From Promethearchaeota archaeon (GTDB lineage Archaea; Asgardarchaeota; Lokiarchaeia; Sigyniarchaeales; SOKP01): 28,040 nucleotides of DNA. The first letter of the stretch is position 1. The number at the start of each line of letters is the position of its first letter. Below are positions 13,889 to 27,938 of the stretch, in pieces. Position numbers and translations under genes: made by a program. The stretch spans positions 1 to 28,040 of the forward strand of contig JAHPZE010000043.1 of the NCBI GenBank assembly GCA_019058365.1. Direction: 5' to 3'. Under the pieces are notes generated by a model. That model made no database searches. It was not told the origin of the DNA and saw only the letters and a list, made by a program, of their open reading frames with translations.

Positions 13889-14461
13889 ATGAATGAAAAA
13901 TTAAAAATAAGATTTTCTGGTAGAGGAGGTCAAGGCATCAAATTTTTAGGAAGTGTATTAGTCCGAGTTGCTATGGCTGCTAATTATTATGCGACACTCA
14001 CAGTAGACTATACACCTTCCGTTAGAGGAGGTCCTATTTTTTGTGATGTGATTCTAAACACTGCTCCTATTTCATATCCATTCTGCGATAAAGATGCTGA
14101 TATTTTTATAGCCATAGATCAAAATGGATTTGAGCGCGCTTCTGAATGTATATATGAAAAAACTCACTCCTTTATCGATGAGCATACAATTGCTAACCCC
14201 GAAGAAATAATCCAAAAAGGTATAATCCATCGCGTCCCAATTACAAGACGTGCGGATGAAAAAAAAATGCCCAAGAGCGCAAATATTGTTTGTTTAGGAT
14301 TCCTTTCTGAATATCTTAAAGAGAGTGGAAAAATTGATTTAAAAGAAGAATATTATGATCAAGTTTTAAATAATATGCCAAAACAGTTTAGAGCCATTAA
14401 TATTCAGAGTTATCAGCTTGGTCAAGCTCTCTATCAGGAATTAATAAATAAATTCCAATAA
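13889..14461 (+). CDS. 2-oxoacid:ferredoxin oxidoreductase gamma subunit (KorC-like)
   Basis: IRFSGRGGQG, YTPSVRGG and SANIVCLG motifs. Confidence 0.9.
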   Translation: MNEKLKIRFSGRGGQGIKFLGSVLVRVAMAANYYATLTVDYTPSVRGGPIFCDVILNTAPISYPFCDKDADIFIAIDQNGFERASECIYEKTHSFIDEHTIANPEEIIQKGIIHRVPITRRADEKKMPKSANIVCLGFLSEYLKESGKIDLKEEYYDQVLNNMPKQFRAINIQSYQLGQALYQELINKFQ

Positions 14462-14524
14462 ATCCTATTTCTTTAATAGAACCTTGTAAGATTTGACTTT
14501 TAAATTCTTACCAACGTAGTTTCA

Positions 14525-14558
14525 TATGAAGAAATCATTATTTAATGAGTTTCTTATA
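14525..14558. promoter_or_regulatory. Imperfect inverted repeat in the gamma-delta intergenic region
   Basis: TAT-G-AAGAAA-TCATTA [TT] TAATGA-G-TTTCTT-ATA; possible operator or RNA hairpin upstream of the delta-alpha-beta-hdrA unit. Confidence 0.35.
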
Positions 14559-14651
14559 CTGTGAAAAAGCAAATTTAAAAGAGACTCTATTATTTTAAAG
14601 CATAAGAGAAAAAAAATAGTCAGTGTATATATACAAAAAGATGATCAAAAA

Positions 14652-14939
14652 ATGTTAAAGTCTAAACGAACACCCATTTTACCACCTCCTACCCCCGAGA
14701 AAAAGTATGAGATATTTATAAATTCTGAACAATGTGATGGTTGTGAATTATGTTTATCGTTTTGTCCAAAAGATATAATAGAAATAAGTGAAGATAACTT
14801 CAATAGTCGCATGCTCCACTATGCAATTGTGGTTAAACCTGAAGAATGTGCAGGGTGCAGACAATGTGAACGGTTATGTCCTACAGTTTCATTATATATT
14901 TTGGAAACAGATATTAAGGAGGTTAATAATAGTGAGTAA
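14652..14939 (+). CDS. 2-oxoacid:ferredoxin oxidoreductase delta subunit (2x[4Fe-4S] ferredoxin, KorD-like)
   Basis: CDGCELCLSFCP and CAGCRQCERLCP; overlaps the alpha-subunit start. Confidence 0.9.
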   Translation: MLKSKRTPILPPPTPEKKYEIFINSEQCDGCELCLSFCPKDIIEISEDNFNSRMLHYAIVVKPEECAGCRQCERLCPTVSLYILETDIKEVNNSE

Positions 14940-16077
14940 GGTAAAGTTCCAAGAAAAAAGAATACTAACTACTGGAAATTATGCATGTGCAGAAGGTGCG
15001 ATTACAGCAGGATGTTTATATTTTGCGGGTTATCCTATCACACCATCCTCAGAAATTGCGGCTTACATGTCAAGACGACTTCCTCAAGTTAATGGGACAT
15101 TTGTTCAAATGGAAGATGAGCTGGCTTCAATCACAAGCTGTTTTGGAGCTTCTTATGCTGGAAAGAAAGCGATGACTGCAACTTCAGGACCAGGTTTTTC
15201 ACTTATGGCTGAAAGTATAGGTTTGGGCGTGATGTTAGAAGTACCAACAGTTATTGTCACAATAATGAGAGGAGGTCCTAGTACAGGACAACCTACAAAT
15301 GCATCTCAATCTGATGTATATCAAACGAGATATGCTTCTCATGGAGACTATGAAATAATCGTATTAGCCCCATCTACAGTTCAAGAAATGTACGATTTGA
15401 CCATACATGCATTTAATTTATCTGAAAAATATCGTATACCTGTAATTGTCGCTTCAGATGGAATTTTAGGACAAATGATGGAGGTTGTTAATATACATTC
15501 AAATATTCAATTAATAGAGCGTAAAAAACCTCAAGTTCCACCTGATAAATATAAACCTTTTGAAGCTTTTGATGATGATCTTGTGCCTGGAATGGCAATA
15601 GCAGGAACTGAATATTCTTTTTATGTTACAGGTTTAACTCATGATATAGAGGGAAATCCAGAAATGACACCAGAAGCGGCAGAAGTTCTCATTAAACGGC
15701 TTTGTGATAAAATTAGGAAAGCAAGACCTCAAATTAATGATTGGGAGGAAAAATATTTAGACGATGCTGATATCGTTATTTTAGCTTATGGAATTAATGC
15801 AAGAGGGGTGCCAGAAGTCGTTGAGCAAGCACGCCAAAAAGGATATAAGGTGGGACTTGTACGATTAAAAACTCTATGGCCCTTTCCTGATGAATTAATG
15901 GAAAGAATAGGACAAATGGGGGTTTCAAAGGTTATCGTCTGTGAAATGAACAATGGGATGGTAATTAGAGAAGTTCAGAGATTTCGGCATTTGTTTAATG
16001 TTTCTGGTATTACAATTCCTACCACCATACCTTTTAGTCCTAAATTTATTTATGAGAAGTTTATGAAGGAGGTTTAA
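14932..16077 (+). CDS. 2-oxoacid:ferredoxin oxidoreductase alpha subunit (KorA-like)
   Basis: GNYACAEGA, AGYPITPSSEI, QMEDE, TATSGPGFSLM and RGGPSTG. Real start is probably GTG 14932 after SD AGGAGGT (14917-14923), not 14788. Confidence 0.93.
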   Translation: MSKVKFQEKRILTTGNYACAEGAITAGCLYFAGYPITPSSEIAAYMSRRLPQVNGTFVQMEDELASITSCFGASYAGKKAMTATSGPGFSLMAESIGLGVMLEVPTVIVTIMRGGPSTGQPTNASQSDVYQTRYASHGDYEIIVLAPSTVQEMYDLTIHAFNLSEKYRIPVIVASDGILGQMMEVVNIHSNIQLIERKKPQVPPDKYKPFEAFDDDLVPGMAIAGTEYSFYVTGLTHDIEGNPEMTPEAAEVLIKRLCDKIRKARPQINDWEEKYLDDADIVILAYGINARGVPEVVEQARQKGYKVGLVRLKTLWPFPDELMERIGQMGVSKVIVCEMNNGMVIREVQRFRHLFNVSGITIPTTIPFSPKFIYEKFMKEV

Positions 16078-16080
16078 GAT

Positions 16081-16965
16081 ATGAGTCCATCAGATCAAAT
16101 CTCAATCCCCCCTGAAGCGCTGGGTCATCCCTTAATAGATATGTTAAATTTACACCGATTTATTTTTTGTCCGGGTTGTTTAATTGGGACTGTAATTACA
16201 TCAATTACAAGCTGCCTAAAAGAAAGAGGACTCACATCTAAAGATTATGCCATTGTATCTGGCATAGGATGTACTGGTCGATCTAGTGGCTGTTTTAAAG
16301 CACCTGCCTTCCATACTACACATGGGAGAGCTATACCCTTTGCAACGGGTATAAAATTAGCAAATCCTAAATTAAAAGTTATAGTTCTATCGGGAGATGG
16401 AGATCTTTTTGCTATTGGTGGGAATCATTTTATCCATGCTGCAAGAAGAAATATAGAACTAACGGTGCTCTGTATTAATAACAATATATATGGGATGACT
16501 GGAGGTCAAGTAGCCCCTACAAGTCAGATTGGTGACATCACTTCAACAACCCCATATGGAAATGTAGAACCTCCCTTCAATTTGGTAAGCCTAGCAGCTG
16601 CGTCAGGAGCAACATATGTCGCTAGATGGCCTGCATATGACACACTTAGATTACAAAAAAGTATTTTTAAATGCATAGACAATCAAGGATTCAGTTTTAT
16701 AGAAGTACTTGCTCCTTGTTTTATCCAATATGGGTCTAAAAATAAATTAGGCGATGCTGTAGAGATGCTAGATTGGTTAAAAAAGCAAATTAGGATTAAG
16801 CTTGATTGGCCCCCTCATCAGGCAACTTTTGATTTTAAGAAAGGGATTATTATTTGCGGAGAATTTGTGGAAGAGGAGCGAGAAGGATTTAGCAAAAAAA
16901 TAGAACAAGTTCGAAATAATGCACAAAATAAGAAAATAGTAAGAGAAATTAAAGATAGTGCCTAA
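16081..16965 (+). CDS. 2-oxoacid:ferredoxin oxidoreductase beta subunit (KorB-like, ThDP-binding)
   Basis: FCPGC, SGIGCTGR, HGRA, GDGDLFAIGGNH and NNNIYGMTGGQ; SD AGGAGGT upstream. Confidence 0.93.
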   Translation: MSPSDQISIPPEALGHPLIDMLNLHRFIFCPGCLIGTVITSITSCLKERGLTSKDYAIVSGIGCTGRSSGCFKAPAFHTTHGRAIPFATGIKLANPKLKVIVLSGDGDLFAIGGNHFIHAARRNIELTVLCINNNIYGMTGGQVAPTSQIGDITSTTPYGNVEPPFNLVSLAAASGATYVARWPAYDTLRLQKSIFKCIDNQGFSFIEVLAPCFIQYGSKNKLGDAVEMLDWLKKQIRIKLDWPPHQATFDFKKGIIICGEFVEEEREGFSKKIEQVRNNAQNKKIVREIKDSA

Positions 16966-16969
16966 ATAT

Positions 16970-19321
16970 ATGACTGAAAGTGATAATAAACCTGATATTG
17001 AACCTAATATAGGAGTTTTCCTATGTAAATGTGGAAAAAATATTGGTGGAACTGTTGATATTGATCAATTAGCTAAAGATATTGAAGAAGATACAAGAGT
17101 CAAACTAGTTCAAGTTAATACCTATACTTGTTCTGATCCCGGGCAAGTAGAAATCGAAGCAGCAATTAAAGAGCAAGGTATAGAGAAGATAGTTATAGCA
17201 GCATGTTCCCCGAGATTGCATGGACCAACATGGAAAAAGCTTTTAAGACGAGTTGGAATAAATCCTTCGCTAGTAGAAGTTGCTAATATCCGGGAACAAT
17301 GTAGTTGGGTACATCTTTCAGAGAAAGAAGAAGCGACTAAAAAAGCTAAAGAAATCCTTGAAATGGCAATCGCTAAAGCTGAGTTATTAGAAGCAATTGA
17401 TGATATCGTTGTTCCCATTACACGAAGAGTATTAATTATTGGAGGAGGAGTAGCAGGAATTCAGGCTGCATTAGATTTAGCTGATGAATTTGAAGTTATT
17501 CTTGTAGAAAAATCACCTACTATTGGAGGAAAGATGGCTCTCATCGATAAGACTTTTCCAACAATGGATTGTTCAATTTGTATTTTAGGTCCCAAAATGG
17601 CTGATGTAGGTAATCATGAAAATATTAATTTAATTTCCTGTGCTGAAGTAACCAATATATCTGGATATATTGGTAATTTTGAGGTAACAATTAAAAAACA
17701 TCCTCGCTATGTGGATGAAAACCTCTGTACTGCATGTGGGGATTGTGTTTCAATCTGCCCTGAAAACGTTATTGATGAGTATTCTGGCAATTTAGGTTGG
17801 AGGAAAGCAATATATATCCCATATCCACAAGCCGTACCAGCCTGTTACATAATTGATGAAAAGAGCTGTTTAGGTCTCTCTCCTTTAGCCTGTGGAAAAT
17901 GTGTTCCTGAATGCGAAAAAGAAGCTATAATTTATGAGGATTCCGAAAGAACTTTTAATTATAAAGTTGGAGCCATTATAATAGCAGTGGGATTTGAACT
18001 TTTTGATGCTTCTAAGCTCCCAGAATATGGATGGGGTAATTATTCCAATGTAATAACAACTTTTGAGTTTGAAAGGTTAATTAACGCGGCAGGACCAACA
18101 AATGGAGAACTCGTACGTCCCAGTGATCTTAAGAAACCAAAAAACGTTGCTTTCATTAATTGTGTAGGATCGCGTGATAAGCGATTTAATCCATACTGTT
18201 CTAACTTCTGTTGTATGGAAAGTATAAAGGATAGCCTTTTGATTAAAGAACATTGGCCTGATGTTGAGGTTACAATATTCTTTATTGATATTAGGGCTTT
18301 TGGTAAAGGGTTTGAAGAATTATATTCACGTTCAAGAGAAGAAGGGGTTCTTTTTATACGTGGACGCCCTGGTCAAATTAAAGAAAATCCCATAACTAAA
18401 AATCTAAAAGTTAGTGTTGAAGATATAAGCACTGGAACAATTCTCTCTGAAGAATTTGATTTAATAGTCCTTTCTATAGGAGTTGAAGGTTCATCAGAAT
18501 CTATTCCTTTTCCTATTGCTAAGGATTCAAGTGGATTTTATATTGAAGCACATCCTAAACTTCGACCAGTAGATACTCCAACTGATGGTATTTTCATTGC
18601 TGGTGGAGCAGAGTCACCAAAGGATATTAGAGAAACTGTTACACAAGCTAGTGCTGCAGCAGGACGTTGTGGAAATTTGCTTTCAGAAGAAGAATTCCAT
18701 GTAGAGCCTTTATATGCTTTCGTAGACATAGAAAAATGTACTAGTTGTGGAACTTGTGTATCTCGTTGTCCTTATGGTGCTATAAGTGTTGATCGAGAGA
18801 AAAAAACTCCAGCACGAATTATTCCAATATTATGTAAAGGTTGTGGTACATGTGCAGCAGATTGTCCTACAGATGCTATTACCATGACTAATTTTACGGA
18901 TGCTATGATCCTTAGACAAATTGATATTGCTCTTCGTGAAAAAGCTTCGGAAAAAGTAATGATTTTTGCTTGTAATTGGTGTTCATATGCGGGAGCCGAT
19001 TTAGCTGGAACAAGTCGTATCCAGTATCCAACTAATACAAGAATTGTTAGAACTATGTGTTCAGGACGAGTAAAAGTATCTTTTATTAAACATTGTTTTA
19101 ACCGTGGAGCTGGAGCTGTTATGTTGACCGGATGCCACCCCCAAGATTGTCATTATATTTCTGGAAATGATTTTGCCATAAAGCGAGAAAAAAGAATTAG
19201 AAGTTGGATGAAGAAAAATAATATTTCTGATGAGAGATTTGTCATTGAATGGATCTCTGCAGCAGAAGGAAAAAGATTTGCTGAAATAGTTTCACAAGTA
19301 AGTAAAATAGCTTTAAAGTAG
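16970..19321 (+). CDS. hdrA: Heterodisulfide reductase subunit A (HdrA)-like flavoprotein fused to a C-terminal MvhD [2Fe-2S] domain
   Basis: GVFLCKCG, NIREQCSWVH, FAD motif IIGGGVAG, DKTFPTMDCSICIL, inserted and C-terminal ferredoxins, CVGSRD...CSNFCC; MvhD motifs FACNWCSYAGAD, CSGRV and GCHPQDCHY. Start is ATG 16970 or GTG 16958. Confidence 0.92.
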   Translation: MTESDNKPDIEPNIGVFLCKCGKNIGGTVDIDQLAKDIEEDTRVKLVQVNTYTCSDPGQVEIEAAIKEQGIEKIVIAACSPRLHGPTWKKLLRRVGINPSLVEVANIREQCSWVHLSEKEEATKKAKEILEMAIAKAELLEAIDDIVVPITRRVLIIGGGVAGIQAALDLADEFEVILVEKSPTIGGKMALIDKTFPTMDCSICILGPKMADVGNHENINLISCAEVTNISGYIGNFEVTIKKHPRYVDENLCTACGDCVSICPENVIDEYSGNLGWRKAIYIPYPQAVPACYIIDEKSCLGLSPLACGKCVPECEKEAIIYEDSERTFNYKVGAIIIAVGFELFDASKLPEYGWGNYSNVITTFEFERLINAAGPTNGELVRPSDLKKPKNVAFINCVGSRDKRFNPYCSNFCCMESIKDSLLIKEHWPDVEVTIFFIDIRAFGKGFEELYSRSREEGVLFIRGRPGQIKENPITKNLKVSVEDISTGTILSEEFDLIVLSIGVEGSSESIPFPIAKDSSGFYIEAHPKLRPVDTPTDGIFIAGGAESPKDIRETVTQASAAAGRCGNLLSEEEFHVEPLYAFVDIEKCTSCGTCVSRCPYGAISVDREKKTPARIIPILCKGCGTCAADCPTDAITMTNFTDAMILRQIDIALREKASEKVMIFACNWCSYAGADLAGTSRIQYPTNTRIVRTMCSGRVKVSFIKHCFNRGAGAVMLTGCHPQDCHYISGNDFAIKREKRIRSWMKKNNISDERFVIEWISAAEGKRFAEIVSQVSKIALK

Positions 19322-19328
19322 ATATATA

Positions 19329-19351
19329 TTTGTTGGTTGTAAATCAACAAA
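19329..19351 (+). other. Short hairpin immediately 3' of the hdrA-mvhD stop (possible transcript-end or stabilising element)
   Basis: TTTGTTGGTT-GTA-AATCAACAAA: 10-bp stem with one G-U pair on the + strand. Confidence 0.4.
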
Positions 19352-19385
19352 ACTGAAATAATATAAGAGGGATAATTTAGAAAAT

Positions 19386-19886
19386 ATGCCTGATCTTCAG
19401 AAAGAAAGAAAAAAACGCTCAGAAAAGATGATAAGCTTATTTAATTCTTTCAAAAACCAAGAATTAAAAAACTTACCTGTTCCTCCTTTTTCAAAATGGG
19501 CTAATGGGAAAATAATAAAAGCGGAGTTTGGTTTAATGGAATTAGAATTTGAAGTAAGACCTGAAATGGCAAATCCAACAAACTTACTACACGGTGGGAT
19601 ACAATGTGCACTAATGGATGATGTGATAGGGATTACAACAGCCACACTAGGTTATAAAGGTTTTCCAATTAGTATAGATTTCCATGTAGATTATTTAGGA
19701 AAAATTCAAGTTGGTGAAAAAGTAAGAGTAATTGGAGAAATTATACGGGAAGGAAGAAATATTATCCATGCAAATGCAGAAATTCGAGATTTGAATAATA
19801 ATTTGATCTCAACCAGTAATTCAAATCTATTAAAAACTAAGTTTATACCAGAATATGTAAAAACAGCGGATAGGTTAGAAAGGTAA
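19386..19886 (+). CDS. PaaI family (hotdog-fold) acyl-CoA thioesterase
   Basis: MANPTNLLHGGIQCALMDD hotdog motif; SIDFHVDYL; REGRNII. Confidence 0.9.
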   Translation: MPDLQKERKKRSEKMISLFNSFKNQELKNLPVPPFSKWANGKIIKAEFGLMELEFEVRPEMANPTNLLHGGIQCALMDDVIGITTATLGYKGFPISIDFHVDYLGKIQVGEKVRVIGEIIREGRNIIHANAEIRDLNNNLISTSNSNLLKTKFIPEYVKTADRLER

Positions 19887-21320
19887 TCATGAATGTCCCA
19901 TTCTTCTTTTATATTCTGAAATTTTTGTCAGTAGTGGGATAAATTCAAGAGGATCTCCAGAAACTGGAACTTTCCTTTCAATTAACTTTTTTGAAATACT
20001 TTCTCTTTCTTCTGGGTTATTCAAACGTTGAATTATGGGAATTAAGGGTTTATTATGTTTATGACCCAATATAAGGCTTTCTATCATATTAGATTCAAAA
20101 TCTTGATTATCCCTTGATTTAAGAACAGGAGTTAAATAAAAACTAGGCATATCTAAAATTAAACCATCTATCTTTTTGTCTGATAAAGCAAGATCAATAA
20201 TTTCATATACAGAAATTACATAGAAAAATTGTGCTGCTAAATCTAAAGGATTATTTGAACTTGTACCTGGCAAAAAAAATTTGGACTTGAGTTTATCTTG
20301 GATTTCAGAACTAAATGGAGGTATTTTCATTCCTGCTTTCTCAAGTAGATCTACTAAAATCACTCCATAGCCTCCACTAATACTAAAAACTGCCAAATTA
20401 TTTAGTTCAAAAATTCCATAAAAGTCAATTAAACGAGCAGTGTGGAGTAATTGCTCCAAAGAATCAACATCAATAATGTTAAATTGTCTAAAAAGAGCAT
20501 GCCAAAGTCGATTATCTCCTGAAATTGAAGCAGTATGTGTCTTAGCTGCAATAGAGCCGGTCTCTGATTGACCTCCTTTTAATATTACAATTGGCTTTTT
20601 GTTTTGTTCAAGGACTTTCTTCAAATCATCAATTCTTCCTTCTTTAATACCCTCGAGGTAACATAAAATAATGTCTGTTTCTGGATCATTACTTAAAAAG
20701 TAAAGTAAATCAACAAAATCTATATCTGCTCCATTTCCAAATGAAAATACTTTAGAAAAATTAATACCTAATGCTTCTGCTCCATATATTGCAATATTAC
20801 AGATCCCACCTGACTGTGCAATAAAGCCTATATTTCCGGGTGTTGTTGGAAATCCTGGACGCCAAGCTATACCTAACTTAGGATAATAGATTCCCAATCC
20901 ATTTGGTCCTAGGATCCTTACTTTATTTTGTGCTCGCTTTAATAATTCCTTCTCTAAAGCAATACCTTCTTCTGTACCAGAATCAGAAAATTCAGATGTA
21001 AAAACAGTAACTAATTTTACGTTTTTTTTTACACAAGAATCAATTGTCCTTAAAATCTGGGATGGTGGAACTGCAATAAATGCAAAATCGACTTCTCCAT
21101 GAATGTCTTCTAATGATGGAAAAATATTTTTCTTGTCAAAATTAGGAATTTCTTCAGCAGTAGGATGAACCGCATAAGTAGGACCTTTAAAATATTCTGC
21201 ATGATTTTTCAAAAAGAAGTATTCTCGCTTTTTGGAAGGACCAATAACAGCAATAGATTTAATATCATTTATGAACGAAACATCCTTGACATTTAAGTAG
21301 GTAGTATCTTCCTCTGTCAT
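19887..21320 (-). CDS. ADP-forming acyl-CoA synthetase alpha subunit (AcdA-like CoA-binding protein, no ATP-grasp domain)
   Basis: SIAVIGPS CoA-binding fold, ILGPNGLG, AQSGG, SFGNGAD, YLEG, AKTHTAS phospho-His, SISGG and NNPLDL. Its stop abuts the convergent thioesterase stop with no spacer. Confidence 0.88.
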   Translation of the reverse strand: MTEEDTTYLNVKDVSFINDIKSIAVIGPSKKREYFFLKNHAEYFKGPTYAVHPTAEEIPNFDKKNIFPSLEDIHGEVDFAFIAVPPSQILRTIDSCVKKNVKLVTVFTSEFSDSGTEEGIALEKELLKRAQNKVRILGPNGLGIYYPKLGIAWRPGFPTTPGNIGFIAQSGGICNIAIYGAEALGINFSKVFSFGNGADIDFVDLLYFLSNDPETDIILCYLEGIKEGRIDDLKKVLEQNKKPIVILKGGQSETGSIAAKTHTASISGDNRLWHALFRQFNIIDVDSLEQLLHTARLIDFYGIFELNNLAVFSISGGYGVILVDLLEKAGMKIPPFSSEIQDKLKSKFFLPGTSSNNPLDLAAQFFYVISVYEIIDLALSDKKIDGLILDMPSFYLTPVLKSRDNQDFESNMIESLILGHKHNKPLIPIIQRLNNPEERESISKKLIERKVPVSGDPLEFIPLLTKISEYKRRMGHS

Positions 21321-21547
21321 TACTTCTTAAAATTATTTATAGCATTAAATTTTTGAGATTTAATATTTTTACTAACGCATTTTTTCTATTAGATAATATA
21401 TCGCAGTAAATATTTAGCAATTTTAGTTATTTTAACAAGCCTATAAATTTTAGTAAGAAGTAAATTATTTTGAAATAAATAAATATAGATTTTAGATCTT
21501 CATGAGGATTTGATCTATTATAGTTCTTCTATTCATTTAAAGAAATA

Positions 21548-21667
21548 TTTACAATAATGTAAACTTACTAAATCCATCTACAGATTTGTCTATACAATAA
21601 TGTAAATTCCCCAAATTCATATACATATTTGTTAATTTATTCTTTCTTTAATTTACATTAATGTAAA
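21548..21667. promoter_or_regulatory. Array of three 16-bp palindromes TWTACA-WTAA-TGTAAA (candidate transcription-factor operators)
   Basis: TTTACAATAATGTAAA 21548-21563; TATACAATAATGTAAA 21591-21606; TTTACATTAATGTAAA 21652-21667 (perfect palindrome). The first two lie in an imperfect 43-bp tandem duplication. Confidence 0.75.
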
Positions 21668-21715
21668 ATACACTACTATAAATAATCTCTTATAGATTTT
21701 TCAATTTTGTCAAAT

Positions 21716-21737
21716 GAAAAAAAAAAATTTATATATA
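21716..21737 (+). promoter_or_regulatory. Archaeal BRE/TATA promoter of the metalloprotease gene
   Basis: Purine run followed by TTTATATA at 21728-21735; the same position is occupied by TTTATAAA in copy 2. Confidence 0.65.
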
Positions 21738-21761
21738 ACTCGGCATAATAAAAAATCACTG

Positions 21762-21886
21762 AAAATGTCTAGAATTTCGTAGAGCTTAAACCACTTGCAG
21801 AAATTTTAGGACTTTTTGGCTATGTTTGTAATATGTTCAAATGAGACAACATTTTGAATATTCGAACAACAAAAATGGAAAAGTAA
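21762..21886 (+). ncRNA. Candidate structured cis-regulatory 5' leader RNA, copy 1 (hairpins P1 21762-21816 and P2 21824-21867)
   Basis: Both hairpins are conserved in copy 2 with one fully compensatory and three G-U-consistent substitutions; the loops diverge most. Confidence 0.7.
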
Positions 21887-21926
21887 TTTCCAACAAATTT
21901 AAAAAAAAAAATAAGATGATATAAAA

Positions 21927-24221
21927 ATGAGAAAAAAACTAGTTACAATTTTAATGGTCTTCACCTTTTTAAGTATTGCTAGCTTTTCAACAATGTTAAA
22001 TGTAACCGGTAATGTTCAGAGTGAAACATCATCCTTTGATATAGAACCACTTTATGATTGCCAGTCTGCTGATACTTTATCACTTGAGGATGCAGTATTT
22101 GAACCTCCACATAGTCCATGGCTTTATCCCACCATTAACGATTATACTGGTTCCGTACAATGGCTCTATTTTGAAAATATCTTTAATGGTACCTATGGGA
22201 ATATTTGGGTCGCATTGGATCCAGCATATGATTGGTATGTTGATAATGGTGAGCCTGGTTATAGTCCTGATGATGTATGGTTTTTTAGTTATCCATGGAC
22301 TTCTACTGGCTACCCTGATTCGAGTTATCCAGATGGCTATTATTTACCACCGGGTTATGTTGATTATATAACAGGAGCAGATCTATTAGAAGTTTTAGAA
22401 GAATTCGATAATAATATCCATGATACAGATGTGGGATATTTTGGTCAATATAATGATCGACCAGGCCCTTATGATGATTATAAGGTCCAAGTAATGGTAT
22501 TCAACATCAAGGATGATTTTTTCTACGATCCTGCTAACGCTCAAGGTTTTATCGAAGGATATTTCTGGTCACAAATAGCTGATTATTTCTCTACTAACGC
22601 ATTCCATATGGATACTTATCAATGGTGGAGGAGACAAGGTGGAAATCCACCAATGGAGGATCCTTATAATAACTTTGATTACTCATATCTCAGTATACGT
22701 GCTTGGGAATATGAAGGAACCTTTGCCCATGAATTTCAGCACCTTATTCATCATGACAGAGATTCTGATGAACTTTCCTGGGTTGACGAAGGCTGCGCAA
22801 CTTTAGCTGAATGGCTTTGTGGATATGGATTCTCTCCCGGACATATTTCGGAGTATTTACTCTGGTTCTGGGATACTCCATTAACGATATGGGAAGGGTA
22901 TTTAGCTGATTATGGCGCATCCTTTCTGTGGACATACTATATGTATGAACATTACGGTGGAGCAGAATTATTAACCTATCTAGTTGAGGATCAAGCGAAC
23001 GGAATTGCAGGATGGGAAAATGCACTTGCAGCAATGCATATACATAGATCATTTGATCAAATCTTCCAAGACTGGTGTATCGCAAACTATCTTGATGATA
23101 CATCATTTGGAAGAGGAAGATATGGTTATTATGAATTAGATATTCCTTCGGAAAACTCAGATGGTATGAGTATACAGCTTGCAATGGAATTGTGGGACAG
23201 TTGGTATGCAGGTCTTGGCTATTTCGATTGGTATGTGAATGAATATCCATATGACGGTGAATATATTTTAGCTGGTCGTGGATTACCTTATACTGCGAAT
23301 TATGTAGAATTTACCAATGTTCCATCATTATTTGAAGTAGAATTCGACGGTGCTGAAACATGTGGGGCTGCACCAACTAGTGGGACACATAATTGGTATT
23401 CTGATGGGGAAGCTTGGTCATGGTGGACACTTAGTCAAACATTTGATGTACCTGCTACAGGAGCATGGCTTTATTTCTCTAACTACTTTTCAATCGAAGA
23501 AGATTGGGATTATGGTTATGTAGAGGTTTATGACCATGATACTGGATTGTGGACAACACTACCAGGGCTTTACACGACAGATTATCTTGGTTATGCACAA
23601 GACAATCCATACACTCCTACTGAAAGAGAGCCATATATGTATAATTATACAGGAACATGGAACTGCTTCACAGGAGACAGTGGTGGTTTATACACAGAAG
23701 CAATGGATCTTACACCCTTCGCAGGGCATACAATAGAATTGTCCTTTACTTATTGGACTGATGCATATACACTTGGTTCAGGATGGTATATTGATGATAT
23801 AGAAATACCTGAAATTGGATTCTCTGATGATTGTGAAACGCTTGGTGACTGGACTGTTAGTCCAGAAGGTTATGGATGGTATTTAAACGATGAGATAATT
23901 TACAATCATTTTGCAGTAAGTTTAATCCAATCGACAACCTATTTCAAGAAGGATGGTACAGCATATAAAACTTGTTATCATATAGATGGAATGAGAATCA
24001 ATGATGATACTGAAACAGGAAATGAGTTCATGTTAGTTAAAAATATTAGGCGTACTGAGAGTACTGTTGTAATGGTGGTTGCTAATCAACCAGGATATGA
24101 ACATACATTCGGAACCACTTATAGTTTCCATGCAGATTGGAAGCATTGGCATCATCATTGGTATTGCCAATGGCATCATCATTGGATTCATGATTGGCAT
24201 CATTGTTGGCACCATCATTAA
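21927..24221 (+). CDS. Secreted zinc metalloprotease (HEXXH...E gluzincin-type domain + immune-inhibitor-A-like beta domain) with Trp/His-rich C-terminal tail
   Basis: Signal peptide MRKKLVTILMVFTFLSIASF; TFAHEFQHLIH with downstream WVDEG; EEDWDYGYVEV and GWYIDDI motifs of InhA-like C-domains; tail WKHWHHHWYCQWHHHWIHDWHHCWHHH. Confidence 0.87.
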   Translation: MRKKLVTILMVFTFLSIASFSTMLNVTGNVQSETSSFDIEPLYDCQSADTLSLEDAVFEPPHSPWLYPTINDYTGSVQWLYFENIFNGTYGNIWVALDPAYDWYVDNGEPGYSPDDVWFFSYPWTSTGYPDSSYPDGYYLPPGYVDYITGADLLEVLEEFDNNIHDTDVGYFGQYNDRPGPYDDYKVQVMVFNIKDDFFYDPANAQGFIEGYFWSQIADYFSTNAFHMDTYQWWRRQGGNPPMEDPYNNFDYSYLSIRAWEYEGTFAHEFQHLIHHDRDSDELSWVDEGCATLAEWLCGYGFSPGHISEYLLWFWDTPLTIWEGYLADYGASFLWTYYMYEHYGGAELLTYLVEDQANGIAGWENALAAMHIHRSFDQIFQDWCIANYLDDTSFGRGRYGYYELDIPSENSDGMSIQLAMELWDSWYAGLGYFDWYVNEYPYDGEYILAGRGLPYTANYVEFTNVPSLFEVEFDGAETCGAAPTSGTHNWYSDGEAWSWWTLSQTFDVPATGAWLYFSNYFSIEEDWDYGYVEVYDHDTGLWTTLPGLYTTDYLGYAQDNPYTPTEREPYMYNYTGTWNCFTGDSGGLYTEAMDLTPFAGHTIELSFTYWTDAYTLGSGWYIDDIEIPEIGFSDDCETLGDWTVSPEGYGWYLNDEIIYNHFAVSLIQSTTYFKKDGTAYKTCYHIDGMRINDDTETGNEFMLVKNIRRTESTVVMVVANQPGYEHTFGTTYSFHADWKHWHHHWYCQWHHHWIHDWHHCWHHH
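24138..24218 (+). repeat. Degenerate 12-nt repeat (TGGCATCATCAT) encoding the period-4 W-x-x-x His-rich tail
   Basis: 27 aa containing 13 His, 7 Trp and 2 Cys; Trp every fourth residue. Confidence 0.9.
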
Positions 24222-24410: not shown

Positions 24411-24986
24411 GTGATCAGAATAATAAAAAACTGGAAAAATTATTTAAATTTTGATCCTCTGCTAAAATTTCAATCTTCTGGAAAGAAGGCAATTAGATAT
24501 TATACTAATCGAGATCTTTTAGGTGATAAAATGAGATCAATTAAAAGTTTATGGGTACTTCCAAAAGCAGAATAAATACTCAAAAAACAACAAAAAAAGG
24601 GCTCATGGAAATATCTTAGAAGGAAAACATATTTGAGATCTCAATAAAATTATGATCAATTAGAAACATATAGGCAATTAGGGTTCCTTATTGAAAAATA
24701 TGAGTTCAATAATAAACATCAAACCATCCAAAAAGCAGCTAAATTCTTATTTTCATATCAAACTGAAGAAGGTGATTTTAGAGGGATTTATGAGAATCAA
24801 TATTCCCCGAATTATTCTGCTGGAATAATGGAATTGCTGATTAAAGCAGGATATGATAAAGATCATTATATATAATAAGGATTTAAATGGCTATTATCAG
24901 TGAAGCAAGATGATGGTGGATGGATTATGCCGATAAGAACAAATAATGCGAAATTTTTGATGATAAAAAAAAAAGAGATGATATAA
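24411..24986 (+). pseudogene. Truncated pseudogene of a prenyltransferase/squalene-cyclase (QW) repeat protein
   Basis: One frame from GTG 24411 reads ...QQKKGSW...FLFSYQTEEGDF...GFKWLLSVKQDDGGW... with in-frame TAA at 24573, 24645, 24873 and 24876. Missed by the ORF track. Confidence 0.8.
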
Positions 24987-25040
24987 AAATTGTAAATGTT
25001 ACAATTTTAATAGTAATAATCTTCATATTTTTAAATGTTC
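24965..25040 (+). repeat. Relic third copy of the protease translation-start/signal-peptide region
   Basis: A10-GAGATGATATAAAAAT...GTTACAATTTTAATAGTAATAATCTTCATATTTTTAAATGT resembles copy 1 (AGATGATATAAAAAT; GTTACAATTTTAAT) and copy 2 (ATTTTAATACTAGTAGTCTTCACACTTTTAAATGT). Confidence 0.6.
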
Positions 25041-25257
25041 TTATGCTGAGTTTATTTATTATATTAACATTATGACATGTTAGAATATTTAAATTTCGCA
25101 TTCTAATCTTATACAATCTTAAAAGTGTAACAAAGAGGATAATAACTCAAAAATGGCAATATTGGTTGATATCCTCAGATAATTTGGAAAGTTTATTAAA
25201 AAATTTTAAAAATTTATCTGATTTCTGTTTCAAGAATAATTTTCAATTTTGTAAAAA

Positions 25258-25275
25258 GAAAAAAAGATTTATAAA
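25258..25275 (+). promoter_or_regulatory. Archaeal BRE/TATA promoter of the subtilase gene
   Basis: GAAAAAAAGA followed by TTTATAAA at 25268-25275, 199 bp before the ATG exactly as in copy 1. Confidence 0.65.
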
Positions 25276-25301
25276 TTTGTCAACATAATAAATTCTCAAC
25301 A

Positions 25302-25432
25302 AAATTGTCTAAAATTTCAGTGGGTGAAAACCATTTGGAGAAATTTAATGACTTTTTGGTTTTGTTCGTAATATCTTGAAAAACTATAAGATTATGGATA
25401 TTTGAACTGTAAAAATGGAAAAGAATAGTTAA
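25302..25432 (+). ncRNA. Candidate structured cis-regulatory 5' leader RNA, copy 2 (P1 25302-25356, P2 25364-25407)
   Basis: Same pairing register as copy 1, with structure-preserving substitutions. Confidence 0.7.
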
Positions 25433-25466
25433 TAATTTACTAAAAAAAAAATAAGATGAGAAAAAA

Positions 25467-27938
25467 ATGAGAAAAAAACAAATTATTTTAATACTAGTAG
25501 TCTTCACACTTTTAAATGTAGTTAGTTTTCCTTTCGTTTTCGCAGAACCACAGAAAATTTCTTCTGACTTAGAAGATGAGCTATCAAGACTTGATGCAGG
25601 TTCTATTGATGCAGGTTCTATTAACGTCCTTATTGAAACATATGATTATGATTATACCTCAATTGTATCATATATTGAGTTTTTTGGAGGTGTAGTAACA
25701 AACGAATTTAAATATGCATCTGGTTTAGCTGCAGAAATTCCTATTAACGCAATTGAAAATTTGAAAGATCTTTCTAATGTTAAAAAGATATCTAAAGATG
25801 AAATTCGCCAGTTTAGTTCCTCTACACCTATATTCGGTAATGAAGAATTGGATGACTATATTTTTAGTGAAACAGAGCTTTCAATGGATGGAAGAGAAGT
25901 AATTAGCCTATCCACATCTGAAATAACAAAGATATTTGATAGTGTGCCTGAGACATACTGGAATTACCTTTCTATGAATGCTTGGTCTGTTTGGGAATCT
26001 GGTTATATGGGACAAGATTCTTTGGCTGTTATTATCGACACTGGAGTGTATGATCAACATATCATGATACAACACGCGGTTATAGGTGGTATAGATCTAA
26101 GTCCTGACTCAGAAACTCCAGGAAATCCAGATTGGAATAGTCCTCTTAATCATTGGCATGGAACTCATTGTGCCGGTATTCTAGCTGGTGATGTTGCGCT
26201 TATAGTGCCAGAAAGTGATATATTATATCAATCCTATGAATTATATACTGGTATATCCATACCCGCATCTGTTGTCGACCCTGGATATTCAGAAAATTAT
26301 TATGTCATCCCTTTATTAGGCATGGCACCAGAGGCACAGATCTTTGGCATAAAAGTATTTCCTTCTAGTGGTGCAGGTGTTCCCACATCGTATATTATTA
26401 ATGCTATTGAATATGCCATAGGGATGCATGAATCTGGTGATTATGATGTGGATGTTATAAGTATGAGTTTAGGAGGTGGAACTGGGTATGATGGACGAGA
26501 TCTCGAAGCTCAAACTGTAGACTATGCAACTTCAATAGGTATTACTGTTGTTACCTCTGCTGGTAATGATGGTCCTGCTTCATTGACGGTTGGTAGTCCA
26601 GGGTGTGCTAATACAGCCATTGCTGTTGGAGCCGTCGCTGATCCTGTCAATACAAGAATCTATTGGGACGTAATGTATGATTGGTATGGTCTTGGATATT
26701 ATCTCTTTACTAGTGAAACTCCACAAGTTATTTACTTTAGTAGTCGTGGAACAACATCAGATGGACGACTAAAACCAGAATTATGTGCAACAGGAGTATA
26801 TGTGTTATCATCATATATAGATCCTTTAGATCCAAGTCCTTACGGTTTCGCTTGGGCTTCTGGTACCTCAATGGCCTGTCCAGCAGTTGCGGGAGCAGTA
26901 GCACTTCTTAACAGTTGGGGTGAATGGGAAGGTGCTTCTCCTTATGATTATAAACAAGCTTTAATGGATGGAGCAATATGGATGGAAGGTTATGATGAAA
27001 ATGACCAAGGAGCAGGTAATTTAAATGCATACCAATCTTGGCTTTCATTAATTAATGATGATTCTCTAGGAGATGATCACCCAGGACTTAGAAAATGTTA
27101 TAGAAGAAGCCCTGTTCGACCAAATGGTATTAATACACACATTTCTGAGAAAGGTCGCTTCACATATTATTTAAAAGAAATGGAACCAGGACATCCACTT
27201 GAATTTTACTTGCTTGTTACTGAAAAAACGAAAAGTATAACAATAATTCTCTCGCATATAGACTTAGGTGATGATCCATTATTGATGAATAGTTTTGAAC
27301 TCTCTGTTCAGAGTGCTGTAAGAACGGGCTATGATTATCATGTTGAGAGCTTTAATATAAATGGTACTACTACAGTTGAGATTGAAGATTATAGTGTTAC
27401 ATGGACAGAAGATAATATATGGGGAACCGATTATTACCAAGAAACACCACTCCAACCTGGATATTATAAAGTTTGTGTGGAGAATGATTGGACTAGTTAT
27501 GATGTCCTTTCAGGCAAATTGGAGATTATCGTAGAAAAAGATATGCCTTGCTGGGATCATCATCATTGCTGGGGTCATCATCATTGCTGCTGTCATTGCC
27601 ATTGGAAATATATTAATTTTCCAGATGAAACTTATAAAGGTACAATTACAACTGACGAGGCAATAGGATGGATTCCTATCGGAGCTGGTGATGATGGTGT
27701 TATAGTAGAGCTATGGTGGAAGAATGATTGGACTAGATATCCAACTAGTGATTTAGATATGGTGGTTGCATGGTTTGATACAGATGACAACTTACATTAT
27801 GAATATGCTGCTGGTGGTTCTCTTAGATCACCTGAAGGGGTATATTTACCTGATGCAGTTGCGGCATACATCCTAATTTTTGGATATGAGACTTATGGAG
27901 TCAAAGAACATTGGAAATTGTATGTTTGGTATCAATAA
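25467..27938 (+). CDS. Secreted S8 subtilisin-like serine protease (signal peptide, I9-like propeptide, catalytic domain, C-terminal beta domains with a His/Cys/Trp-rich insert)
   Basis: Triad IIDTG / HGTHCAG / GTSMACP, oxyanion SAGNDG, FSSRG; insert CWDHHHCWGHHHCCCHCHW; no C-terminal transmembrane anchor. Confidence 0.93.
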   Translation: MRKKQIILILVVFTLLNVVSFPFVFAEPQKISSDLEDELSRLDAGSIDAGSINVLIETYDYDYTSIVSYIEFFGGVVTNEFKYASGLAAEIPINAIENLKDLSNVKKISKDEIRQFSSSTPIFGNEELDDYIFSETELSMDGREVISLSTSEITKIFDSVPETYWNYLSMNAWSVWESGYMGQDSLAVIIDTGVYDQHIMIQHAVIGGIDLSPDSETPGNPDWNSPLNHWHGTHCAGILAGDVALIVPESDILYQSYELYTGISIPASVVDPGYSENYYVIPLLGMAPEAQIFGIKVFPSSGAGVPTSYIINAIEYAIGMHESGDYDVDVISMSLGGGTGYDGRDLEAQTVDYATSIGITVVTSAGNDGPASLTVGSPGCANTAIAVGAVADPVNTRIYWDVMYDWYGLGYYLFTSETPQVIYFSSRGTTSDGRLKPELCATGVYVLSSYIDPLDPSPYGFAWASGTSMACPAVAGAVALLNSWGEWEGASPYDYKQALMDGAIWMEGYDENDQGAGNLNAYQSWLSLINDDSLGDDHPGLRKCYRRSPVRPNGINTHISEKGRFTYYLKEMEPGHPLEFYLLVTEKTKSITIILSHIDLGDDPLLMNSFELSVQSAVRTGYDYHVESFNINGTTTVEIEDYSVTWTEDNIWGTDYYQETPLQPGYYKVCVENDWTSYDVLSGKLEIIVEKDMPCWDHHHCWGHHHCCCHCHWKYINFPDETYKGTITTDEAIGWIPIGAGDDGVIVELWWKNDWTRYPTSDLDMVVAWFDTDDNLHYEYAAGGSLRSPEGVYLPDAVAAYILIFGYETYGVKEHWKLYVWYQ
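25591..25620 (+). repeat. Perfect in-frame 15-bp tandem duplication in the subtilase propeptide
   Basis: TTGATGCAGGTTCTA x2, giving LDAGSIDAGSI. Confidence 0.9.
27549..27605 (+). repeat. 18-nt repeat (TGCTGGGRTCATCATCAT x2) and Cys/His run encoding the internal metal-binding-like tract
   Basis: 19 aa containing 8 His, 6 Cys and 3 Trp. Confidence 0.9.

What the first reader, a model, noticed from the sequence alone, without database searches (positions are those of the whole stretch)
21762..21886. Two-hairpin 5' leader RNA with covariation: riboswitch-like element, copy 1
Seen: P1 pairs GUC-UAGAAUUUC (21767-21778) with GAAAUUUUA-g-GAC (21800-21812). P2 pairs GUUUG-u-AAUA (21824-21833) with UAUU-CGAAC (21859-21867) and UGUU (21834-21837) with AACA (21848-21851), leaving a 7-nt bulge (UUWUGRA) and a 10-nt loop. 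Versus copy 2 (+3540): G21835-C21850 becomes C-G (fully compensatory); U21827.G becomes C-G; G-C21863 becomes G.U; G21772.U becomes A-U; the variable base 21809 falls in a bulge; one P1 pair (21771/21807) is lost; loops diverge most. G.U tolerance points to + strand RNA, not a DNA palindrome. Conserved unpaired blocks (AAACCAYUUG, UUUUUGG, AAAAAUGGAAAAG) could form ligand contacts or a CCA/UGG pseudoknot. A ~170-nt leader is long for archaea, where few riboswitches are established. I cannot match it to a known family from memory.
Basis: partly seen in the sequence, partly recalled or inferred. Interest (0 to 1): 0.9.

Follow-up and report, generated by a model that had tools for sequence, protein, structure and literature searches.

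The report
Asgard protease-gene hairpin leader RNA
Secreted-protease genes of one family of Asgard archaea start their messages with a folded two-hairpin RNA that is missing from the Rfam database; it most likely protects the message from decay rather than sensing a chemical, and it moves between unrelated protease genes as part of a promoter-leader-signal-peptide module.

Summary
The hairpins are real, exactly as described. The genome's close relatives are Promethearchaeota (Lokiarchaeia). Both copies lie between a TATA box and a secreted protease gene (HEXXH/InhA-like; S8 subtilase). Rfam has no match. I found 39 close copies: 34 precede InhA-like proteases, 3 subtilases. About 35 diverged leaders occur in two genera. 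The structure is under RNA-level selection: the P1 core has 74 G·U against 1 A·C cells, 0/500 shuffles reach the covariation score, and median folding z is -3.3 against 0.0 for other leaders in the genome. The riboswitch reading is not supported: 44 diverse leaders share no invariant base, the 'conserved unpaired blocks' are deleted in about half, the pseudoknot lacks support, and I found no terminator or anti-SD switch. Best reading (0.5): a 5'-terminal mRNA stabiliser like E. coli ompA's. Main rival (0.22): an attenuator or protein-bound regulator hiding U-tracts from aCPSF1. Start site and function are untested; no RNA run was listed. The scan's first readers noted this element before in related genomes.

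The parts
21698..21720 (.). Imperfect DNA palindrome TTTTCA-N11-TGAAAA just upstream of the BRE; possible transcription-factor site
   Evidence: Sequence; kept upstream of most close homologues; function inferred
21721..21735 (+). A-rich BRE and TATA box (TTTATATA at 21728-21735) of copy 1
   Evidence: Sequence; same position in homologues; archaeal promoter consensus from established knowledge
21756..21758 (+). Initiator-like TCA; predicted transcription start A21758 (not mapped)
   Evidence: T 100%, C 97%, A 100% in 36 copies; about 27 nt from the TATA centre
21759..21819 (+).
   Evidence: ensemble pairing of the core about 0.98 (median, 34 leaders)
21783..21792 (+). Apical mini-hairpin of P1, GNRA-capped in 19/36 close copies; broken in copy 1, intact in copy 2 (GGU-GAAA-ACC, 25323-25332); deleted in diverged classes
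21824..21867 (+). P2 hairpin: GUUC/GAAC base, AUAUC/GAUAU middle, variable top
   Evidence: top mutual-information pair 21835/21857
21871..21883 (+). Purine-rich tail AAAAAUGGAAAAG; close subfamily only; holds an upstream AUG in 23/39 copies with no common frame or length
21913..21920 (+). Shine-Dalgarno-like AAGAUGAU in an unpaired A-rich spacer
   Evidence: Own 16S 3' end GAUCACCUCCU; pairing probability 0.06 in copy 1
21927..24221 (+). 764-aa secreted HEXXH metalloprotease with an InhA-like MAM domain (M6-like) and a His/Trp/Cys-rich C-terminus
   Evidence: PF20773 E 3e-17; HEFQH at residue 268; signal peptide read from sequence
24965..25075 (+). Dead third copy of the SD plus signal-peptide start, with no ATG, leader or promoter
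   Evidence: Repeat family D2; translation
25268..25466 (+). Copy 2: TATA 25268-75, predicted +1 25298, P1, P2, tail, SD
   Evidence: 72-92% identity in leader blocks, 32% in the spacer, 45% upstream
25467..27938 (+). 823-aa secreted S8 subtilase; its signal peptide resembles that of the metalloprotease
   Evidence: PF00082 E 4e-42

Best explanation
This is the structured 5' untranslated leader of secreted-protease mRNAs in one family of Promethearchaeota. Predicted: transcription starts about 27 nt after the TATA centre, and the first ~62 nt fold at once into a hairpin whose first pair is at about +2; a second hairpin follows; an unpaired A-rich stretch leads to an open Shine-Dalgarno site. 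Shown: the two hairpins are conserved as + strand RNA structure while sequence, loop sizes and registers drift. Inferred: the 5'-terminal pairing denies 5'-end-dependent decay enzymes a single-stranded end (and hides U-runs from aCPSF1), so the message is long-lived and much protease is exported; on/off control is done at the DNA level by upstream palindromic sites. Promoter, leader, SD and signal-peptide start are copied as one module between metalloprotease paralogues and onto unrelated subtilase genes.
For: Structure: (P1 core G·U 74 versus A·C 1 cells; tree events 41 versus 17, p=0.002). Specific to this gene family: first 70 nt have median z -3.3 (39 close copies) and -2.6 (34 diverged) against 0.03 for 231 other predicted TATA leaders of the genome. 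The first paired base lies within a few nt of the predicted start in every class. Sequence is free: no invariant column in 44 leaders; P1 shrinks from 62 to about 30 nt. Paralogues with 25-30-nt leaders also begin with a mini-hairpin of unrelated sequence (median z -1.2 versus +0.4). SD mostly open (median pairing 0.23). A separate upstream palindrome TGGG-N7-11-CC(C/A) sits about 72-83 nt upstream in 18/25 diverged leaders against 3/390 background. Leader identity is uncoupled from protein identity (82% with a 30% protein; 62% with a 65% protein). The genome encodes aCPSF1 and two further beta-CASP proteins. Precedent: 5' secondary structure stabilises bacterial mRNA (PMC3997798); long 5' UTRs stabilise methanogen mtaA/mtaC mRNAs (cited in PMC5378194).
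Against: No start-site, probing or half-life data. A bare stabiliser need not keep P2, the apical GNRA hairpin, the unpaired G21782 (97%) or the purine tail seen in the close subfamily. aRNase J, the main archaeal 5'-3' exonuclease, is reported absent from Asgard archaea (PMC10946056), and the RNase J-like protein here scores 106 bits against a cut-off of 400, so the enzyme guarded against is unidentified. The homologues are kin, so p-values overstate. The genome-wide control rests on crude promoter prediction.
Confidence: 0.5

Rival explanations
1. Regulated attenuator or protein-bound leader: the 3' arm of P1 carries two U4+ runs, the minimal aCPSF1 binding element. When P1 folds they are hidden and transcription continues; a protein or small RNA that binds the leader (apical GNRA hairpin, G·A-rich internal loop, purine tail) shifts the fold and lets aCPSF1 cut and terminate early.
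For: Two U4+ runs in the P1 3' arm in 27/39 close copies, with U-run bases 84% paired. Two U4 tracts are the minimal aCPSF1 site, and Loki aCPSF1 reads U-tracts (PMC8716108). aCPSF1 is present. The close subfamily mostly lacks the upstream TGGG palindrome (3/39), so it may use RNA-level control instead. Copy 2 has an alternative fold (U-run with tail 0.86; SD pairing 0.59).
Against: The double U-run is found in only 4/14 class II and 0/6 class III leaders. U-runs are expected in a 29.5% GC genome. The alternative fold dominates in 1/34 leaders, and its pairs show 11 A·C versus 5 G·U events. No candidate protein was identified.
Confidence: 0.22
2. Riboswitch: P1 (GNRA-capped) and P2 dock to form a pocket for a metal, amino acid or cyclic dinucleotide and switch protease expression, at least in the close subfamily.
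For: Two hairpins with a GNRA loop in 19/36; conserved unpaired A27/G28/A39 in the close subfamily; always upstream of one functional class of gene.
Against: No invariant base family-wide; the apical region and tail are deleted in classes II and III; GNRA is lost in 17/36, including copy 1; no 11-nt receptor seen; no Rfam match even at E 10; no terminator after P2 and no covarying anti-SD; registers slide between members.
Confidence: 0.08
3. RNA thermometer or cold-adaptation leader: marginally stable, AU- and G·U-rich hairpins melt or refold with temperature and tune stability or translation.
For: Many G·U pairs; long leaders are tied to cold response in methanogens (PMC5378194); predicted SD pairing rises from 0.23 at 37 C to 0.44 at 20 C.
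Against: The SD lies about 45 nt beyond P2 and is not in a conserved helix; P1 is predicted fully folded at both temperatures; ROSE_3 hit is chance (E 8.2).
Confidence: 0.08
4. DNA operators: the inverted repeats are binding sites for a repressor downstream of the promoter, and RNA folding is incidental.
For: Fixed arm spacing within each class; class II has a near-perfect CTTGAAA/TTTCAAG repeat.
Against: G·T departures far outnumber A·C on the + strand (74 versus 1 in the P1 core; 3 versus 0 in class II); arms and spacing differ wholly between classes.
Confidence: 0.06
5. No function: similarity reflects recent duplication of a promoter region.
For: Leaders do get copied between genes; one copy has lost its gene (G003); the two window copies fold weakly.
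Against: Leader blocks are 72-81% identical while the adjacent spacer is 32%; covariation and strand asymmetry; the fold persists with unrelated sequence in two genera.
Confidence: 0.04

Closest known systems
5'-terminal stabilising stem-loops of bacterial mRNAs (E. coli ompA and papA leaders; reviewed in PMC3997798)
   Same: Long leader of an exported-protein mRNA, a hairpin at the extreme 5' end, a second hairpin (ompA layout from my own knowledge), open ribosome-binding site, structure more important than sequence.
   Different: Archaeal host with TATA/BRE promoter; no sequence homology tested or expected; the decay enzymes would be beta-CASP proteins rather than RppH/RNase E; travels as a module among protease genes; function not shown here.
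Long 5' UTRs of Methanosarcina mazei mtaA/mtaC mRNAs (Cao et al. 2014, as cited in PMC5378194)
   Same: Archaeal long leader that raises mRNA stability.
   Different: Different lineage and genes; I could not read the paper, so structural likeness is unknown.
c-di-GMP-I (GEMM-I) riboswitch, Rfam RF01051
   Same: Two hairpins, a GNRA-capped stem, often upstream of secreted-protein genes.
   Different: No Rfam match; no invariant junction bases; GNRA optional; no receptor motif; no expression platform; not among the riboswitch classes common in archaea (TPP, fluoride; PMC5473149).
aCPSF1/U-tract termination signals (PMC8716108)
   Same: Two U4+ runs close together in the P1 3' arm of most close copies; aCPSF1 encoded.
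   Different: Here the runs sit at about +50 to +60 of a leader and are base-paired; not kept in diverged classes.

Membership tests
Structured cis 5' leader RNA | Lies between promoter and start codon on the coding strand | tested here: met
   TATA, initiator and downstream gene in 37 of 39 close copies; one truncated, one gene lost
Structured cis 5' leader RNA | Base pairs kept by compensatory or wobble changes, with strand asymmetry | tested here: met
Structured cis 5' leader RNA | Transcribed from the predicted start | not testable with these tools
   No RNA holder listed
5'-terminal stabiliser (ompA type) | Hairpin begins within a few nt of the 5' end | tested here: inconclusive
   First pair at predicted +2 in the window and within a few nt in all classes, but the start is predicted, not mapped
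5'-terminal stabiliser (ompA type) | Structure conserved, sequence free | tested here: met
   No invariant column in 44 leaders, folding z stays low
5'-terminal stabiliser (ompA type) | Raises mRNA half-life | not testable with these tools
   Needs a reporter or decay assay
Riboswitch (any class) | Invariant nucleotides forming a ligand pocket | tested here: not met
   None family-wide; candidate blocks paired or deleted; a few conserved unpaired bases only in the close subfamily
Riboswitch (any class) | Expression platform (terminator/antiterminator or SD sequestration) | tested here: not met
   No U-run after P2; SD median pairing 0.23; alternative fold dominant in 1/34 and not covarying
Riboswitch (any class) | Ligand binding | not testable with these tools
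   Needs probing
c-di-GMP-I riboswitch RF01051 | Match to the covariance model | tested here: not met
   No hit at gathering or at E up to 10; none in loci holding strong homologues
c-di-GMP-I riboswitch RF01051 | Conserved GNRA loop with a receptor in the other stem | tested here: not met
   GNRA in 19/36, absent in copy 1 and in diverged classes; no conserved receptor seen by inspection
H-type pseudoknot (CCA/UGG) | Loop-to-tail pairing kept across homologues | tested here: not met
   With UGG 21876-78: 21 of 108 cells unpaired, 4 A·C versus 2 G·U events; the other UGG is in the basal stem
aCPSF1 attenuator | Two U4 tracts within about 18 nt, conditionally exposed | tested here: inconclusive
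   Present in 27/39 close copies, 4/14 class II, 0/6 class III; conditional exposure not shown
MITE or transposon end | Many dispersed copies, terminal inverted repeats, varied insertion sites | tested here: not met
   Two copies in the genome; all copies in the same promoter-leader position
Leader-peptide (uORF) attenuator | Conserved short reading frame | tested here: not met
   Single-base indels through the alignment; upstream AUG in 23/39 with no common frame or length

The most novel reading that the evidence does not exclude
In the close subfamily the leader is a true RNA regulator, the first in Asgard archaea: a ligand or protein acting on the GNRA-capped P1 decides whether two U-runs are exposed to the termination nuclease aCPSF1 (homologue of eukaryotic CPSF73), switching a regulon of secreted proteases by premature cleavage.
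Probability: 0.2. Interest if true: 0.88.

Novelty: new variant of a known kind. Interest (0 to 1): 0.5.

Why it matters
My two literature searches found no described cis-acting structured leader in Asgard archaea, and how they protect or degrade mRNA 5' ends is open: aRNase J is reported absent there. A hairpin kept at the predicted 5' end across some 70 leaders with drifting sequence implies selection on mRNA 5' ends in this lineage and gives a defined substrate for testing its beta-CASP nucleases. It also shows a portable promoter-leader-signal-peptide module that recruits unrelated proteases in presumed peptide-fermenting archaea. It is a candidate new Rfam family.

Tried and rejected
Rfam at gathering threshold (whole window) and at E up to 10 (21300-22000): only chance hits DLEU2_1, RT-17, ROSE_3; nothing relevant in three homologue loci. 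Model R1 over 151 genomes of the phylum: not found outside the own genus in those searched; it also misses the diverged classes, so this is a sensitivity limit, not absence. Pattern hits in bacteria and Bathyarchaeota failed the covariance model and are chance. My first apical register (5-nt loop) was replaced by the GNRA register. An alternative U-run/purine-tail fold and a GUCU anti-SD pairing were tested and are not supported. A kink-turn in the P1 internal loop was considered by eye; the tandem G·A consensus is not met. A conserved uORF was rejected. A genome-wide habit of 5' hairpins was rejected. No solved structure resembles the metalloprotease by sequence. R-scape was not available; covariation rests on shuffles that ignore relatedness, slid controls and a tree-based event count. 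Two primary papers were not held.

Full report
Observation. All helices and all differences between the two copies are present at the coordinates given. The copies are 74% identical over 165 nt and 3540 nt apart. They are the only two in the 4.74-Mb, 29.5% GC genome. Singly they fold only modestly (z -1.66 and -0.91 on the + strand, about 0 on the - strand), so the pair alone would not prove a structure. Rfam has no match.

Context. Each copy lies after an A-rich BRE and TATA box (21728-21735; 25268-25275) and an initiator-like TCA that puts the predicted start at A21758, 169 nt before the ATG. Copy 1 precedes a 764-aa signal-peptide protein with HEFQH and an InhA-like MAM domain; copy 2 precedes an 823-aa S8 subtilase. 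The two front ends match in promoter (74%), P1 (73%), P2 (72%), tail (81%) and SD region (92%), but not in the spacer between (32%) or upstream (45%). The SD-like AAGAUGAU fits the genome's 16S 3' end with a mismatch. Named relatives holding the element are mostly labelled Promethearchaeota.

Homologues. DNA, pattern and covariance-model searches gave 39 distinct close copies (class I) in 18 of 135 genomes of the family, all one genus, plus metagenome contigs. Downstream lie 34 InhA-like proteases (down to 28% identity), 3 subtilases, one truncated gene and one lost gene. Reading upstream of all homologues of the metalloprotease (64 of 135 genomes) showed diverged leaders with the same layout: class II with a CUUGAAA/UUUCAAG stem and a P2 that keeps GUUC/GAAC; class III (second genus) with P1 cut to its base; class IV with GCC/GGC for GUC/GAC. 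A class II model found 18 genomes, and its two new hits again preceded secreted proteins, one of them a subtilase. About twenty other paralogues have a different promoter and a 25-30-nt leader.

Is it RNA structure? On a structure-blind alignment of 36 class I copies the refined model has 90.2% paired cells, 21 cells with double changes and covariation 0.187; no shuffle of 500 reaches these, and slid partners give 36-59% paired. These shuffles ignore relatedness. A test that a DNA palindrome cannot pass is strand asymmetry: in the P1 core there are 74 G·U cells and 1 A·C cell; over all helices 41 versus 17 parsimony events (p=0.002). Class II deviations go the same way. The first 70 nt fold with median z -3.3 (class I) and -2.6 (diverged), against 0.03 for 231 other predicted TATA leaders of the genome. 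The fold is thus specific to this gene family, and the two window copies are weak members of it.

Refined anatomy. Upper P2 uses several registers; the commonest pairs 21835 with 21857.

Is it a riboswitch? Aptamers keep pocket bases across distant members (established knowledge; PMC5473149). Here 44 leaders across the classes share no invariant column, the apical region is deleted in about half, and the purine tail is confined to class I. That alignment is imperfect, but the deletions are plain from length. The pseudoknot is not supported. No U-run follows P2. The SD is mostly open (median pairing 0.23), and an alternative fold dominates in only 1 of 34 leaders, which is copy 2. So both testable defining features fail. 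Within class I a few unpaired bases (G21782 97%, A21781 94%) remain unexplained, which leaves a small probability.

Most likely mechanism. What every class keeps is a hairpin at the predicted 5' end: 62 nt in class I, about 45 in class II, about 30 in class III, and even a mini-hairpin of unrelated sequence in the short-leader paralogues (median z -1.2 versus +0.4). In bacteria such 5' pairing blocks RppH and RNase E and lengthens mRNA life (PMC3997798); long leaders stabilise some methanogen mRNAs (PMC5378194). I therefore infer a constitutive 5' stabiliser that raises output of exported proteases, with regulation at upstream DNA palindromes (18/25 diverged leaders versus 3/390 background). 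Shown: position relative to TATA, RNA-level structure, sequence freedom, gene association, module mobility. Inferred: start site, effect on half-life, the nuclease involved. The genome has aCPSF1 and two other beta-CASP proteins, but aRNase J is reported absent from Asgard archaea (PMC10946056), which weakens the analogy.

Main rival. The 3' arm of class I P1 carries two U4+ runs in 27 of 39 copies, the minimal aCPSF1 binding element (PMC8716108). P1 could hide them until a factor unfolds it. The feature is not kept in classes II and III, and no switch covaries, so I give this 0.22.

Verdict. A real, uncatalogued structured leader of secreted-protease genes in one Asgard family, carried on a portable promoter-leader-signal-peptide module; probably a stabiliser, probably not a riboswitch. 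New variant of a known kind; interest 0.5. First readers of this scan had noted the same element in related genomes, and a follow-up reached a similar reading for a Heimdall-group leader, which I did not test.

Noticed in passing
window 24435-24953 (+): Broken gene with a QDDGGW motif (prenyltransferase/squalene-cyclase repeat type, from memory), 64% identical to a stretch on contig C3; internal stops; it runs into the dead signal-peptide copy at 24965.
   Followed up: partly
L050, L051, L159, L163, L164, L167, L176, L177 and others, 72-83 nt upstream of the leader: Conserved palindrome TGGG-N7-11-CC(C/A) in 18/25 diverged promoters against 3/390 background; a similar GGGGAA..TATACC motif abuts the TATA of the short-leader paralogues. 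Likely site of an unknown transcription factor of this protease family.
   Followed up: partly
L168, L170, L179-L185, L206 (25-30-nt leaders): Short-leader paralogues begin with a mini-hairpin whose 3' arm often holds the SD-like GGGUG/GAGGU, so it could also gate translation.
   Followed up: partly
L031:8343-8600 (G003): Intact promoter and leader followed by a decayed signal-peptide start and no gene.
   Followed up: partly
window 24120-24221 and 27540-27610: His/Trp/Cys-rich tracts (WHHH-type) at the C-terminus of the metalloprotease and inside the subtilase; variable in length among homologues.
   Followed up: no
L032 (G007:C5), L038, L039, L187 (G143): Tandem arrays of 2-4 InhA-like protease genes, each with its own promoter and leader; G007 has class I and class II leaders in one array.
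   Followed up: partly
G000:C41:7944-9320 (L225:1429-2898): 489-aa beta-CASP protein whose best match is the RNase J family (106 bits, cut-off 400), although aRNase J is reported absent from Asgard archaea.
   Followed up: partly
window 13889-21320: korC-D-A-B-like genes followed by a stand-alone HdrA-MvhD-like fusion, converging on a thioesterase-like gene and an ADP-forming acyl-CoA ligase alpha gene; the ligase gene is divergent from the protease promoter here and in L242 and L248. Names other than the ligase are from sequence motifs by eye.
   Followed up: no
window 21550-21632: Two tandem 40-nt copies (83% identical, 43 nt apart) in the divergent intergenic region.
   Followed up: no
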